A stretch of 62,835 nt of DNA, the filler included, from Rhabdomonas costata (taxonomy: Eukaryota), in the NCBI GenBank assembly GCA_019059605.1. It is 44 parts of 44 records of this genome, joined end to end, with 100 filler letters (N's around TTAATTAATTAA, not from the genome) between each part and the next. Parts side by side here need not be neighbours in the genome. Positions count along the whole stretch, not along the records: positions 37,204 to 38,533 come from JAHMHO010019178.1; 43 more parts are not named here. One strand, 5' to 3'. The notes beneath the pieces were generated by a model. It saw only the letters and a list, made by a program, of their open reading frames with translations, did no database searches and was not told the DNA's origin. The position numbers and the translations under genes are program-made. Within the stretch, counting starts at the first letter, position 1. The number at the start of each line of letters is the position of its first letter. Shown here piece after piece: positions 22,477 through 62,835 of the stretch.

Positions 22477-23521
22477 CTTGCACCTCCTGGACGTCTGCCC
22501 GACTCTTCCGTGCCACAGCGGTAAGCCCTGAGAACCTGAAGATATCGTGGATAACGTGAGGCCGCAGAAGGCGCCCGCTCGCTGCAGGGTTCGCCGCACA
22601 AGCCGAGGAGCCCGACGGCTGTGCATTTATCCTTTACCGTTCAGGTTCGAGGGCTGGTACAGTCCCTGGCGCTGTTGCCTTGGCAGCTGTAAATGGAAGC
22701 CAGCGTGCCATCCCCGACGTGCAGCGTCCATTCGGCATCGGCAGAAGAGCCACATTCTTTGCCATAGAGATGGGGCTGCCCAAAAACCAACNNNNNNNNN
22801 NNNNNNNNNNNNNNNNNNNNNNNNNNNNNNNNNNNTTAATTAATTAANNNNNNNNNNNNNNNNNNNNNNNNNNNNNNNNNNNNNNNNNNNNTGTGGGGTG
22901 TGGGCAGGGTGAGGGGGGTCAGTTCTACGTATGTATGTGAGTGTATGTGAGGGGCACCGCGCAAGGTATCGCTTCGTTGATGGTCATGCGTTAGCTCACA
23001 GAATCCCGTGTATTGTGGGTCCCGCGGGATGCTAGTGTGAGTGTGTGCGTGTTTGTTCTGGGCCCTTGGAAGTGCGACACTGCGTCATTTTCTTCCCCTG
23101 TCGCCGTGTCGGACCGCTGAAGAGAGCATCGTCTCTCACAGCGTCTGCGTCCGGATGTGCTCGTGCCGAACCAACGAAAACCCTAACAATGCGAGCACTT
23201 CCTTTTTTGTTCACGCCACAGCCAAAGCCCCCTAAGTATGCGGTTCACCAGCAACCTGCAAAAGAGCAGCGGCGCACCCACAGTTTTGCCAACCTCGGAG
23301 GCATCTCAGGCTGCGCAGTGGGCCGTCGAACACCTGGTTTACAATCCTCCCACTACAACTCCGTAGGTGATGTGGTATGCAATAACGAGGCGGGCTCTGC
23401 GCATTTGAGCAAGGAGCTATTGGGTTGGTTGCCCCGATTTCATCCCACCGTGTGAGTCGCAGGACCGCAGGACGTCAACAACCTTTCCCAGGTGTATGGT
23501 AATTTCAAAGCGGTAGGATAC

Positions 23522-24128
23522 CTTGAGGGTCTCCCGATCGACCTCCACCTTGGCCGTGCCCAGGTGAATGCCGACCCGCACCCGCAGCCCTCGCCACACC
23601 AGCGACCCACTGGGGCCAAACTCCTGCAGGCCGTCCGGCAACTCAAGCAGGCTGAAGACCCCAACCGACCCTCCGGGAAAGGTCAAACCACCACAGGAAG
23701 CCATTGGGACGAAAATGCAAAAATGCATTGCAATGCATTGCAGGTTGCATTCTTCCCCCTTTGCCCCTTTGCCGGGCAGGGCAGCGGATCGAGACCCCAG
23801 CGGATCGAGACAGCAGCTTAATGTGAAAAATGATATCAATGGAATGGAAAAAACTCTGACACTCGCGCACACTTTAGGATGAAGAAAAAGCACCTTTCTT
23901 GGTCAGCCATGACCGAGGCCGGGAGCTTCACAAGTTTGACCAGCGCCATTGATTTTTTAAAGTCATTCTCAAGTTATATTCTTCACGCACATGAAATCAC
24001 TGCGCACCTGGGGGGCCAAGCGGCGCCCATCAGCTCCACCTGCAGCTGAAGGGCAAACCGCACCGCATTAGCAGGATGCGGGAAGGCCACGAAGAAGCTG
24101 TCCCCGATCGTTTTCACCTCGTACCCCT
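23522..24128 (-). CDS. Adenylate cyclase catalytic domain, trypanosomatid/fungal receptor-AC type (two exons)
   Basis: Exons 24128-24008 and 23651-23522 in phase: GYEVKTIGDSFFVAFPHPANAVRFALQLQVELMGAAWPPSLL...VWRGLRVRVGIHLG. YEVKTIGDSF and WxGLRVRVGIH are diagnostic. Confidence 0.93.
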
Positions 24129-37203: not shown

Positions 37204-38533
37204 CATCCTCTCACCTTCTCTCTGTCCCATAAAACTCAAAAACTGCAGTTCGTTCAACAAAAAAAGAACCTAAATATCATCTGCATACCCATTCTGAAAT
37301 TCGAGTGAGATTCGCGGCAGTCAAGGGAACGGCGGAAGCAGCATCTGTTCCGCCAGCGCGGGGAGGGGCGGTTTGAGGAGCCCCACTCAACTCACCAGCT
37401 TCACGCTTCCGGGCGAGCTCTGAAAAAAAAAGAGTTGTCCCATTATAAACAGCAGGAGCCCGAGAGCGGACGTTTTTCTCTTATGAAGAGTTGCAAACCC
37501 ACACCACTTCTTGCTCTCTTGAGTTCTTCTAACTTCTGCCTTTTCTCGGCCAGATCCGATTGAAGGCTCTCGAATTTGGTCTGGGAAAGAATGCGAAGCG
37601 TAAAGCAAAAAAAAAAGGGCAACTTTTGGTTCTGTATCATTTTTGGGAGCTGGCTACGATGTGACATCGCAGTTGGCAAGGGTCCAGTCACATGCATTCG
37701 CGCTGAAATAGCTGATAGCTCCTTCCCAACGTTGAAGGAGAATGCAGTAGAGAAAAAACCAAAGGAGGAAGGGGACACCAAACTAAACTTCAAAAACAGC
37801 AGACATAAAAATCGTTTTTCTAGCTTTTTTTATGTCGCCACGGCACTGCGGCACAGGCACAAGAGCAGGTGAAGAATGCAACACGAAAAACAAAATTTAC
37901 AATGAAAAAACATCTAGGGAGTGACGAGCGCAGCGAGTCACGACCATCACAAAACAAGGGGCCCCATGGTACGAACGGAGTGAGTGCCATGGGGTATCAG
38001 TCTTACTTCACTTGGTTCGCTTCGCTCACATCCACCTTAGAAGTGAACGAGCGTACCGCCTCATGGCGGGGAGCGAGTGAACAAGACATTTAGGAGGAGT
38101 GATGGGAACGCAGTGAACATCACGACGACCGGGTAAACTAAGCGAGGAACGAAGTGACGAAGCGTTTTGGGGCCCCACGAACACAGTGAGTGGGGTATCA
38201 TACGAACATGATGGGCAGCGAGGTACGAGATGACCATCATGAGAACTATAGGAGTGAGCAACGTAGCCGCATAGCGGTGGAGTGACGAACAAGTACATCT
38301 AGGGAGTGACGAGCGCAGCCACGACCAGCAAACAAAGAGGGGCCCCATGGCACTCACTCCGTTCGTACCATGGGGACATCAACCATATTACTCTTACACA
38401 GATTGTCATCCTCTCACCTTCTCTCTGTCCCATAAAACTCAAAAACTGCAGTTCGTTCAACAAAAAAAGAACCTAAATATCATCTGCATACCCATTCTGA
38501 AATTCGAGTGAGATTCGCGGCAGTCAAGGGAAC
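37204..38533. mobile_element. Contig assembled as a 1203-bp circle (or tandem unit); hairpin-core family, member 2
   Basis: 37204-37330 is identical to 38407-38533 (127 bp). The core at 37910-38395 is homologous to two other contigs. Confidence 0.75.
37396..37580 (-). CDS. Two small spliceosomal exons (coiled-coil fragment) within the circular contig
   Basis: 37580-37505 (ttcccag|...|gtgtgg), 85-nt intron, 37419-37396 (tttttttcag|...|gtgagt): TKFESLQSDLAEKRQKLEELKRARSELARKREA. Confidence 0.6.
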
Positions 38534-56363: not shown

Positions 56364-57119
56364 AGCTGGTGCTACAGCGCGAGAGCGTCACGGAAGAGCG
56401 CCGCGCCGTGGCCGCGGAGTGCCTCCGGGAGCAGGCCGCGGTGAGCAGCGGAGGGGCGGATGCCGGGGATCTCTCTGCGGTGGCCACCGCTGCCGCGGCT
56501 GCAACCATGAGCTACCTCAGCACCCCTCTGCCTCCCGCGGGAGGAGGTCTCTCTCTCTTTTTTTTGTGCCACTTCACTGTGCTGTCTGCGGTGTTCACCG
56601 ACCGATGTAGAGTTTTGTAAGAGTGTCACAAGACCTGTGGCTCGAAACTTCTTTGTAAGTGTTGTGGAAGGGCCCAGACGTACCAGAAAACACTTTTTAA
56701 TTGAAAAGTTGAACAGACTGTGGTGTTTTCCTCCTTTTGCTCCATCATGTGTGTTGCAGTCCCCGGGATTGGTCGACCACCGACTTGCCACATTTTTGCT
56801 GGTTGAGGTTCCTGTTTTCCTGTTGTGGTGTGTGCATCTGTAAATTGTCGCTTGTGTGTCACTCCGCAGGAGCGGATGCGTTTTCGTGGACCCAAAGGGA
56901 GCATCTTTATGGCCATGCGCATCGCTCTCTTCCCTGCGGTCACCAACCCCACCACTACCACCACCACCGCCATCACCACCACCACCACCGGTGCGCGCTT
57001 CACCGCCAACCCGTACGCCATGACTGCCACCACCACCACTACCATCACCACCACCACCACCGGTGCGCGCTTCACCGCCAACCCGTACGCCATGACTGCC
57101 ACCACCACCACTACCATCG
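56364..57119 (+). CDS. Two exons; the second encodes His/Cys-rich repeats
   Basis: 56364-56546 (donor gtctct) and 56870 to the contig edge. The phase-1 join selects the frame GADAFSW...HHYHHHRHHHHHHRCALHRQPVRHDCHHHHYH. Confidence 0.55.
56970..57118 (+). repeat. 72-bp tandem repeat, two exact copies plus the start of a third
   Basis: 56970-57041 is identical to 57042-57113; truncated by the contig end. Confidence 0.95.
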
Positions 57120-57416
57120 NNNNNNNNNNNNNNNNNNNNNNNNNNNNNNNNNNNNNNNNNNNNTTAATTAATTAANNNNNNNNNNNNNNNNNNNNNNNNN
57201 NNNNNNNNNNNNNNNNNNNTTTTTTGGGAAGCGCTCTCGCCATGCCAAGAACAGGGAATTGATGCACAAAAAATCAGCCGGATCATTTTAAACAGCCTGA
57301 CTCTCGGCCTGATTCCTAGTTGCGAACCAACTGGACAAAAGTCGTATCCCTAATCGGTCATCACCAAACCCGCATGAGAGTCATGGCGAGTGCGTTTGGA
57401 GTGTGCGCAATCATAC

Positions 57417-57803
57417 GTTGTGCACGACGGCCAGGTATGTGCTGATAACTTCCTCCACCTGCTCCGGCCGGGTGCGCACCACCGCAGAAAAGTCGGTAAT
57501 GTCCACGAGAAGCAGCGTGACCGTGCCGCATCGCAGCCCCAGATCCGTCTGGGGCAGCACAAGTTGTGCCGCGGGGAGGTCAGGGCTGTGACGTCCCACG
57601 GGAGGTGGGGCCCTGCGAGGGCTGAGGCGAGTCACTCCCGCTTGCTCGAGCGATGCATATGATTCTGGCTGTGGTAGATTCGGCCCAGAAGGCTCCCCTG
57701 CTGAGCCGATGATTTCCCTCGGCGCTAGGCGCGTTGGGAAGAGCGTTTGCGGGATATAGCACCGCAGCTGGGAAAGAATCCCGATGGTATCATTCAGCCA
57801 GAC
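57417..57803 (-). CDS. Class III cyclase-like exon (linker and first strand of cyclase domain)
   Basis: cag|...LSQLRCYIPQTL...LGLRCGTVTLLLVDITDFSAVV...STYLAVVHN|gtatga; D-I-x-x-F motif. Confidence 0.75.
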
Positions 57804-59149
57804 CTGCACCCGAAGGAAAGAGATGTCTGTGTGTCTAGTATGTTTCGCCGGTGTATCTAGTCCAATCAAATCATGTGTTTGCCGGTGTATCCAGTGCAAT
57901 GATTGGGGAAATGCCCATGTCCAAATATCCAATGTCCAAATCATTTCTTCACACCTACAGATAGTCAGTGCGCATACTACCACTATAAGCAGGTTAATCA
58001 AACCCAATCGAATCTAAGACAAAACTCGAAATAAAAAGGGGCTTGAAATGGACAATAATTCTGAAACTCGGTGCTCCCTTGCGAGTGGAAGTTGAGTATT
58101 TTCGAAACTCTCCCTGGAATTCCATCATATCAGGGGGAAACGGGAACGGGGGAGGCCTTGCATGCGAGAACTCGAACTTTTGTACATTTTTTCCACAGTC
58201 ATGGCCCCTTTTTAAATCGAGTTTTGTCCTAACGCCAGCAATGCACTGAAACGTTTCACGATCTCCAACTTCAACCCACAAAAACAGCCCAGCGCTAGAT
58301 ATATACAATCCTCTCACCTGAGCGATGGCCAAAGTTGATATTGCGTATGATGCATGCAAATAGGTTCTGCCTGTTAGCGGTCAACGGGCAGTATCGTATT
58401 GCAATCGTAAATCCTTGGTATGACAAAGGTAATTACAGATTACGCCGTGCAAACCCACCCAAAACTCCCATTTATCCACACCCAAACAAAGCCGGGGGCA
58501 TGGCGAAGGAACAAAGCACCAACACTTCCACAGCTGGAACTTACACCCANNNNNNNNNNNNNNNNNNNNNNNNNNNNNNNNNNNNNNNNNNNNTTAATTA
58601 ATTAANNNNNNNNNNNNNNNNNNNNNNNNNNNNNNNNNNNNNNNNNNNNTGTGTTGTGTGGAAAGCAATTCAAAAACTAGCAATGCTGCTTTTTGAATTG
58701 CTAGTTTTTTTGGAAGCAGAAAAGCAAAATAAAATTCGATTCACTATAGTTGGTTTTGGTGCGCTTCAGCTTGGAAGAATGGAAGACAATGAAATACAGG
58801 CCGATTTCCGATGAGAGCAGCCGTACCAAGAGGGGTGATCATCCCTTGCAAACGCTTGTCTCATCGGTCATGGAATGCCTGAACTTCTGAAATTTACGTG
58901 CGGTTAACGTTGCGTGCAAAATGGTTTTACTCCTGATGTTCCTGAAGCGAAGATGTACGACGTCTGCTGCGCAGCAGTGGCTTTGTTTGTGTCTGCTTTA
59001 CATAGGCTGCTCACATCTTTTATTGCTTGCAACCCAATCGCATCACCACCTGCGAGTGGACCTGGTTTTATTTTTGGGGAGGGATTTCGGGAGGCCGGCC
59101 AGAAAAGTAATCAAGAAAAGGAAGCCAGCAAGGAAGCAAGTCCGAGAGA

Positions 59150-61073: not shown

Positions 61074-61526
61074 GTGTGCCGCGTTGGGCTCACTTTTGCT
61101 TGGCAGTTGCTCTGTGTGCAAGGGGGGTTAGAAATGGAGGGTGGTGAGAAATGAAAAGGATGTGGAATGGTGGGCTGAAAGAAATCCCTTGACCTGTGGT
61201 TTTCGCCGGTTGACCCACCAGCAGCGAATGAGTGAATCTGTGATCCAGAAAGTAAGGCGTCAATTGGAGATTATCTGCTGCTCTTCTCCTCGCGTGCCGT
61301 GGAATGGCCGGAGCTGGTTTTTGACTCTCGAAGGCATTGTAAGAAAGCAGCATGATCTCCTTTGCCCCCGCTGCCTTCTTACAATGTCTTCGAGAGTCAA
61401 AAACCACCANNNNNNNNNNNNNNNNNNNNNNNNNNNNNNNNNNNNNNNNNNNNTTAATTAATTAANNNNNNNNNNNNNNNNNNNNNNNNNNNNNNNNNNN
61501 NNNNNNNNNGGTAGTAACATCCCCAC

Positions 61527-62039
61527 CTGCAAGGCATTGGTGAACACTGAGGTCGTGCCACTGGAGTCCTTCCGCACAAAGCGGCTGATCGAAACATTGG
61601 GGAGGAGCCCACCTAGCGCGGGGTTCAGCATCACGATGCGTGGGTCGTTCCAAGCCGTCACTCGTTCCGAGTATATGTCCACCAGGAGCTGCGTGGTGAG
61701 GTTCAGCGGGGGGCTGTTGATGGTCATCCCAGGAAGGTTGTAGATCACCGCCACACCGATCACGAACAGCGGCAGCTGCTGGATATCCGATGCTCCGGCT
61801 GCCTTCTCCGCGGTGCTCAGGCTGGCCTCCGAGCACGCGAAGTCGCTCTGGCCACCCAACACCGCCATCTTGCCCGCACCGCTGCCCGTCCCTGTGTACG
61901 TCACCTTGCACGACGGGAATGCGAAGGCCAGCTGCTGCTCCAGGGAGGCCACCATGGTGGACCCCTGGCCCTGCAAGGGAATCAGGCCTTGCGCACTCAG
62001 CGCCGCGGCAAATGTGAAGAGTACTGGAGTGTAATACAT
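61527..62039 (-). CDS. pstS: PstS-like phosphate-binding domain with signal peptide; first exon
   Basis: GQGST, VTYTGTGSGAG, DFACSE, VIYNLPG, LVDIY..VTAWNDPRI..LNP and RKDSSGTTSVFT are PstS family motifs; GT donor at 61526. Confidence 0.92.
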
Positions 62040-62835
62040 CGTCAGAAGAGACTGGAAAGATCATATACAGAAGCATGACAAGAATACAGAATACACTAGT
62101 GCAGTGTTACGCAGCCCTCCAGGCTGTTAAAATGCAGAGGAAGAGCCGCGAATCGCAAGAATCCGCCACCGGAGGCCAAGTCTGAGGTGACTGCCACAGC
62201 CTTCCTAGGAACAGAGATGTATACTGCCGATCCAGCAAGTGCGCGAAGTGCAATACCCTGTTCGCACCATCAAACCTCAGATGACACCTAGGATGACTTC
62301 GCCGCTTCCCTCCTGACCCTCTTCACATATCACCTCACCATATGGCCTGGCCCCTGGCCTCTGGTTATGAGACGTGTTTCCGTTCCTTTCTTCTGAGGCG
62401 AAACAAAGTAGGTTGGTGGGGTGAGGTCGGGTTAGGGCGATGAGTCTTTCCCTAACAAAGGCGCCCGCTTAAGGAGTATTAATTTTGTCAGATAAGGCGT
62501 GCGGGGGTGCGAAGTTGGGCGTTACTACACGTCACTGCGTTGCTGCCTGTATCTCCAATATCACTGCTTGGAAACCGAAATACAACAGGAGAAACACAAA
62601 GTAGAAGGTAATAACGGCAAAAAAAATCATGAAGTGGAAAAGATGCGTCAAGCAAGAATCTGGACAGCATCCGAATAAGCGTGGGAAACATTTCTCCCTG
62701 CAGCATCCCCTGCCCCCTGATTCTCTACCACGCGTTTCCAAACTCCCTATTTCCCCACAACATAGTGCCGGATCGCCCTCAATCCCCCATCCCGTCCATT
62801 CATCCACCTAACATCCTCCCATCTCACCCACACAC

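What the first reader, a model, noticed from the sequence alone, without database searches (positions are those of the whole stretch)
37204..38533. 1203-bp contig that closes on itself
Seen: the first and last 127 bp are identical, and the contig lacks the ragged GT/CA ends of most neighbours. Known: an exact terminal overlap equal to a common maximum assembler k-mer (127) marks a closed loop in a de Bruijn graph. Inference: a free 1203-bp circle or a perfect head-to-tail array.
Basis: partly seen in the sequence, partly recalled or inferred. Interest (0 to 1): 0.8.

Follow-up and report, generated by a model that had tools for sequence, protein, structure and literature searches.

The report
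Looped contig from dynein gene start
A short contig that closes on itself is not a free-standing DNA circle of its own kind: it is the start of an ordinary chromosomal motor-protein gene plus upstream repeats, most likely present as a small head-to-tail duplication or joined up during DNA amplification.

Summary
The 127-bp exact terminal overlap is real (contig G000:C19178, 1330 bp, unit 1203 bp). The loop is not isolated. Contig C4164 starts with the same 127-mer and diverges exactly at the loop's first base. C4164 carries the middle exons of the cytoplasmic dynein intermediate chain gene. The loop carries that gene's only detected 5' exons, which splice GT-AG in frame into C4164 and match residues 14-38 of a Eutreptiella homolog. 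The rest of the unit is two dispersed nuclear repeat families. The one mismatch between the two 127-mers fits overwriting by a G/T-only amplification primer, not divergence of copies. What remains is one head-to-tail junction whose upstream flank is missing from the assembly. Best reading: collapsed 1.2-kb tandem duplication (0.58); amplification chimera 0.27; passive eccDNA 0.12; autonomous minicircle 0.02. The scan noted self-closing contigs before on other DNA of this genome (about seven notes); I confirmed one. Ordinary; reads would decide.

The parts
37204..38533 (.). Whole contig G000:C19178: a 1203-bp unit plus a 127-bp terminal overlap
37204..37330 (.). Shared 127-mer (graph vertex); repeated at 38407-38533 and, reverse-complemented, at the start of contig C4164 (126/127)
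38406..38407 (.). Head-to-tail junction: intron 3 of the dynein gene joined to the far end of the hairpin repeat, 1203 bp upstream in gene direction
37255..37270 (+). A/C-rich run; base 37266 is the single mismatch to C4164, where the other strand becomes a pure 16-nt G/T run (inferred primer landing site)
37289..37419 (-). Exon 3 (131 nt) of the cytoplasmic dynein intermediate chain gene, AG acceptor and GT donor
   Evidence: weak homolog support
37505..37580 (-). Exon 2 (76 nt): N-terminal helix, matching residues 14-38 of homolog P0002
37692..37697 (-). Candidate two-codon exon 1 (start codon, then a GT donor); inferred only
37839..37901 (+). Left end of a dispersed repeat with a sharp start, cut off after about 63 bp; matched in 16 of the fetched contigs at 86-89%
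37910..38406 (+). Copy of a dispersed mini-hairpin repeat family (pieces 70-91% identical to other contigs), with an internal direct repeat
37962..37994 (+). 33-nt hairpin, family orientation
38343..38375 (+). Same 33-nt hairpin with its loop inverted (exact reverse complement); the only flipped copy among 10 classifiable; ends 31 bp before the junction

Best explanation
The contig is a collapsed head-to-tail duplication (two or more copies) of 1203 bp at the 5' end of the cytoplasmic dynein intermediate chain gene of a euglenid. Shown: the unit contains the gene's 5' exons and about 700 bp of upstream DNA with two repeat fragments, and continues into C4164 at one end. Inferred: a break or template switch in intron 3 re-engaged about 1.2 kb upstream, inside the hairpin repeat. 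That leaves a truncated copy (exons 1-3) in front of one intact gene. The assembler folded the copies into a loop. The outer upstream flank dropped out of a patchy, whole-genome-amplified library, so only one edge is attached. Most likely the duplication is neutral.
For: C4164 shares the 127-mer and diverges exactly at unit base 1, so the contig break is a branch vertex. Exons 2 and 3 splice in frame into the C4164 exon with the LC8-type motif, 134 aa open. Homolog P0002 (Eutreptiella) aligns colinearly: residues 14-38 to the loop (best hit in the whole window, E 0.012; E 2.6e-4 against the two contigs) and 114-317 to C4164 (E 1e-16, 1e-11, 5e-9). The C-terminal WD40 exons lie on C2345, and no second set of N-terminal or middle exons appeared. 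The arrangement is harmless: it leaves an intact gene, and exons 2+3 total 207 nt, frame-neutral. In MDA only 11 of 475 chimeras were direct joins under 10 kb (PMC1855051, passages). Tandem turns and circles cannot be told apart from a graph (PMC9104695, passages).
Against: The outer flank beyond unit base 1203 is in no other contig, so the second edge that a duplication predicts is not seen. No divergence between copies is visible: the one mismatch is better explained by a primer. The library is amplified, and the MDA chimera figures come from a different chemistry. No read depth was available. Another loop in this assembly, C752, has no contig sharing its 127-mer, so loops here need not all arise the same way.
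Confidence: 0.58

Rival explanations
1. Amplification chimera. The gene is single-copy and normal. During whole-genome amplification one strand ending in intron 3 re-primed 1.2 kb upstream, and that molecule was amplified enough to close the graph loop while the true upstream flank dropped out.
For: Contig ends carry a G/T-only signature about 10-12 nt long: 56 of 88 ends against 142 of 4989 internal 10-mers; 82 of 118 ends in size-picked contigs. The mismatch at 37266 is one of only 2 of 381 possible substitutions that create a run of 16 or more such bases, so primers demonstrably altered this locus. WGA chimeras are mostly intra-chromosomal between neighbouring amplicons, and this class of kit covers only 39-52% of a genome (PMC9102663, passages). 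The junction lies 31 bp from a hairpin.
Against: Short-range direct joins were 11 of 475 chimeras in MDA, about half of all chimeras in reversed order. The junction shows no G/T primer run. A one-off molecule must be the sole survivor over the native flank. The frame-neutral, gene-sparing layout would be luck (about 1 in 3 for frame).
Confidence: 0.27
2. Passive extrachromosomal circle (eccDNA) cut from the 5' end of the gene, present in the sampled cell or cells and over-amplified by strand displacement. It would not replicate by itself.
For: The same single junction is predicted. In Euglena gracilis, eccDNA candidates are mostly 600-1000 bp and come from repeats, introns and housekeeping genes; 5' UTRs and exons are cited as hotspots in general (bioRxiv 10.1101/2023.11.29.569251, main text read whole). 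A circle would explain a closed loop that outweighs its missing flank.
Against: That paper's junction-based caller found no circles in any sample; its candidates rest on repeat mode and coverage. Individual eccDNAs are rare per cell (own knowledge). Nothing here shows circular topology.
Confidence: 0.12
3. Autonomous or organellar minicircle, plasmid or viral satellite, with the hairpin repeat as origin.
For: Size 1.2 kb; mini-hairpin motifs; one hairpin in two loop orientations, which recalls flip-flop termini (recalled resemblance).
Against: Attached to a nuclear gene contig. Half of the unit is spliceosomal exon-intron DNA. Longest stop-free stretch around the circle is 128 aa and is the dynein exon frame; no Rep-size ORF. 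No match in 72,556 plasmids. A 25-nt family motif has no exact match in viral contigs. Recalled nonamer and CSB motifs are absent. No Rfam hit at gathering score.
Confidence: 0.02

Closest known systems
Short tandem duplication collapsed into a graph cycle ('phantom' cycles; PMC9104695, passages)
   Same: One head-to-tail junction, exact k-length terminal overlap, loop attached to a unique chromosomal contig at the branch vertex.
   Different: Only one of the two expected flanking edges is in the assembly; copy number unknown.
Cytoplasmic dynein 1 intermediate chain gene (homolog P0002, Eutreptiella; PF11540 motif; PDB 2pg1, 3l9k, 7z8k)
   Same: N-terminal helix exon in the loop; light-chain motif and following segments on C4164; WD40 exons on C2345; 45-69% identity to P0002 per exon.
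   Different: Only the 5' exons lie in the loop. The gene is split over at least three contigs and residues of roughly 320-525 were not found.
Nuclear eccDNA candidates of Euglena gracilis (bioRxiv 10.1101/2023.11.29.569251)
   Same: Size class, chromosomal origin, content of intron, housekeeping-gene and repeat DNA.
   Different: No evidence of circular topology here; other species; amplified library.
Direct-orientation WGA chimeras (Lasken and Stockwell 2007, PMC1855051)
   Same: Two segments of one strand joined in reversed order within 10 kb.
   Different: That class was rare in MDA (11 of 475); the chemistry here appears to be degenerate-primer PCR type, for which I found no count.

Membership tests
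Free circular replicon (plasmid, minicircle, satellite) | Isolated loop with no edge to chromosomal DNA | tested here: not met
   C4164 shares the terminal 127-mer and branches at base 1
Free circular replicon (plasmid, minicircle, satellite) | Own replication protein or known origin motif | tested here: not met
   Longest stop-free stretch 128 aa; no Pfam hit for the unit's longest ORF; recalled nonamer and CSB motifs absent; no plasmid match
Tandem duplication | Head-to-tail junction between two points of one chromosomal segment | tested here: met
Tandem duplication | Unique flank on both sides | tested here: inconclusive
   One flank found (C4164); the other absent from the assembly
Tandem duplication | Read depth a whole multiple of the flank; junction in unamplified DNA | not testable with these tools
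   No reads were available for this window
eccDNA | Chromosomal origin of the sequence | tested here: met
eccDNA | Covalently closed, exonuclease-resistant molecule | not testable with these tools
   Needs bench work
WGA chimera | Library was amplified with degenerate primers | tested here: met
   End composition; primer-type mismatch
WGA chimera | Short complementarity at the junction | tested here: inconclusive
   Native flank missing. A junction-like motif occurs 4 times in 30.7 kb of repeat-family loci and 0 times in 57.7 kb of window, but only 2 of 10 genome-wide exact hits lie in family contigs
Cytoplasmic dynein intermediate chain | N-terminal helix | tested here: met
   P0002 14-38 aligns at 48% to 37583-37509, best hit in the window; alone the exon finds no dynein in the PDB
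Cytoplasmic dynein intermediate chain | Light-chain binding motif region | tested here: met
   PF11540 E 0.0028, 17.9 bits, below the 25-bit cut-off; top PDB hits 2pg1, 3l9k, 7z8k, each weak (E 1.2, 0.063, 0.008)
Cytoplasmic dynein intermediate chain | C-terminal WD40 propeller | tested here: met
   P0002 has WD40; its residues 528-650 match C2345 at 49-63%; physical link of C2345 to C4164 not shown
Helitron or other gene-capturing transposon | Defined termini, target-site signature, related autonomous element | not tested
   Only checked that the second repeat's left end has no inverted partner in 8 contigs

The most novel reading that the evidence does not exclude
The mini-hairpin repeat family is an active single-strand replication or recombination signal that loops out or rolls over adjacent host DNA, making circles or tandem copies that carry gene starts. 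Here the product would be a frame-neutral repeat of exons 2-3, which could yield a dynein intermediate chain with a doubled dynactin/NudE-binding N-terminus if spliced across the 911-nt loop intron.
Probability: 0.06. Interest if true: 0.65.

Novelty: new member of a known kind. Interest (0 to 1): 0.14.

Why it matters
As it stands it matters little: a small duplication or an amplification artefact at a housekeeping gene. It is a useful caution for this assembly. A k-length terminal overlap does not mean a free circle, the 127-mer should be looked up among other contig ends, and single-base differences in A/C runs can be primer marks rather than alleles. If the duplication is real and cis-spliced, it would double the segment that binds dynactin p150Glued and NudE (PMC9771362, abstract), a natural test of dynein regulation. 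If the hairpin repeat drives such events, it would give that unexplained family a function.

Tried and rejected
Rfam: no hit at gathering score in the window; a RAGATH-25 match at 18 of 49 bits is chance. Pfam on seven ORF pieces: none. ESM Atlas on one C4164 exon gave bacterial PutA look-alikes at 0.90 or below, rejected in favour of the colinear homolog. Two word-index homolog searches found nothing; the HMMER library search gave 4 hits, of which 3 (P0001, P0003, P0004) were unrelated and dropped. I first read the mismatch at 37266 as divergence between copies and rejected that. Microhomology from a repeat motif stays only suggestive. I tried to verify the DA1-type loop noted earlier: family search empty, with an empty control, and no loop among contigs C16312-C16363. 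Eight contigs near 1302 bp plus seven spaced probes did not include the 1175-bp loop. An endless ORF round the circle does not exist unspliced. Literature searches on chimeras in degenerate-primer kits and on SPAdes false circles returned nothing on point. bioRxiv supplements were not seen; the eccDNA tables there could bear on the size and source claims.

Full report
Observation. The window is 44 unrelated contigs of about 1330 bp joined by N spacers. The contig at 37204-38533 has an exact 127-bp terminal overlap, unit 1203 bp, and is the only one of the 44 with such an overlap. In 79 other contigs picked by size there was none (59, 20), so loops are uncommon in this assembly. That 127 equals a common maximum assembler k is my own knowledge; the assembler is not known.

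The loop is attached. A search of the own genome with the unit placed it on C19178 and found C4164, whose first 127 bases are the reverse complement of the same 127-mer with one mismatch (40 of 168 candidates scored). The two paths differ from the first base outside the 127-mer. An isolated circle is cut at an arbitrary place; this contig is cut exactly where a second edge joins. For contrast, I confirmed a second loop in this genome, C752 (3531 bp, 127 overlap), and found no contig sharing its 127-mer among 24 of 24 candidates.

The unit holds the start of a nuclear gene. Three C4164 exons each gave cytoplasmic dynein intermediate chain as top PDB hit, each weakly (E 0.063, 1.2, 0.008), and one gave PF11540 below its cut-off. 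A HMMER library search returned 4 proteins; one, P0002, is a 671-aa WD40 protein from Eutreptiella, a euglenid. It aligns in order to three C4164 exons (E 1e-16, 1e-11, 5e-9) and, with residues 14-38, to 37583-37509 in the loop, the best hit in the whole window. The loop's exons at 37580-37505 and 37419-37289 (minus strand) have pyrimidine-AG acceptors and GT donors and splice in frame into the next C4164 exon across a 210-nt intron, 134 aa without a stop. The C-terminal exons lie on C2345 (20 of 20 candidates scored). No second copy of the 5' or middle exons appeared. So the unit's DNA is chromosomal at least once. The organism is a euglenid by this homolog and by earlier notes; I did not try to place it further.

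The other half is repeats. 37839-37901 is the sharp left end of a dispersed element, matched at 86-89% in 16 of the 20 contigs fetched (several are graph neighbours, so independent loci are fewer), and cut off after about 63 bp. 37910-38406 belongs to a second family with pieces 70-91% identical to other contigs, rich in short G-N-A loop hairpin motifs (8 in the unit; the label is recalled). It contains a 33-nt hairpin twice, the second with its loop exactly inverted. Of 11 family hairpin contexts printed, 9 were in the usual orientation, 1 flipped (this one) and 1 unclassifiable. Loop inversion between palindromic arms is the plain reading. No Rfam family, plasmid or exact viral match to a 25-nt family motif was found, and no Rep-size ORF exists around the circle.

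The library was amplified. 56 of 88 contig ends are at least 9/10 G/T at the 5' end or A/C at the 3' end, against 142 of 4989 internal 10-mers, and the signal fades after 10-12 bases (82 of 118). This fits self-inert degenerate primers (PMC9102663, passages); that such primers are G/T-only is my recall. The one mismatch in C4164 turns an interrupted run into 16 straight G/T bases, which only 2 of 381 possible substitutions do. I read it as a primer mark, so it says nothing about divergence of copies.

The junction. Intron 3 is joined to a point 1203 bp upstream, 31 bp past the flipped hairpin. The native continuation of that upstream point is in no other contig. A motif resembling the junction occurs 4 times in 30.7 kb of repeat-family loci and never in 57.7 kb of the window, hinting at 6-8 nt of microhomology. 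Against that, only 2 of 10 genome-wide exact hits are in family contigs, and the version with the junction's extra base has one other hit, not in the family. This is unresolved.

Weighing. A duplication, a chimera and a passive circle predict the same graph (PMC9104695, passages). For duplication: short direct joins were 11 of 475 MDA chimeras (PMC1855051, passages), the layout spares one intact gene, and exons 2+3 are frame-neutral (207 nt). Earlier notes say two other genic loops in this genome are also in frame; I could not verify them. For a chimera: amplified library, heavy dropout, missing flank, different chemistry from the MDA study. For eccDNA: candidates of this size and content are reported in Euglena gracilis, on weak junction evidence (bioRxiv 10.1101/2023.11.29.569251, main text read whole; supplements not seen). 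I give 0.58, 0.27 and 0.12, and 0.02 to an autonomous minicircle.

Verdict. The overlap is real, the free-circle reading is not supported, and the feature is most likely an ordinary collapsed duplication at a housekeeping gene. The scan has noted about seven self-closing contigs on other DNA of this genome. The one open point of interest is whether the hairpin repeat causes such junctions and whether the doubled N-terminal exons, which encode the p150Glued and NudE site (PMC9771362, abstract), are ever spliced together.

Noticed in passing
whole window; contig ends: Most contig ends carry about 10-12 G/T-only bases, the mark of degenerate amplification primers; terminal bases of contigs in this assembly should not be read as genomic.
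   Followed up: yes
L062 = G000:C752:1-3531: Second self-closing contig (127 overlap, 3404-bp unit) with a PF02621 gene; no contig shares its 127-mer. One dispersed repeat ends and another begins about 14 bp into the contig.
   Followed up: partly
L020-L035 (e.g. G000:C24127:964-1194): Dispersed element with a sharp conserved left end starting CACGGCAC, at least 250 bp long, A-rich; right end and target-site duplication not seen.
   Followed up: partly
L003-L018, L036-L039: Mosaic mini-hairpin repeat family with modules on one strand, next to intron-like DNA in some contigs.
   Followed up: partly
window 61510-62060 (-), 23417-23902 (-), 57411-58013 (-): Exon-like ORFs that look like a phosphate-binding periplasmic domain and adenylate cyclase pieces (recalled resemblance; Pfam gave no hit on the fragments).
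   Followed up: no
window 56372-57119: Short tandem unit of about 60 bp with (CAC)n-type runs near a contig end.
   Followed up: no
L140 = G000:C2345: Carries the C-terminal WD40 exons of the same dynein intermediate chain family (49-63% to P0002).
   Followed up: partly
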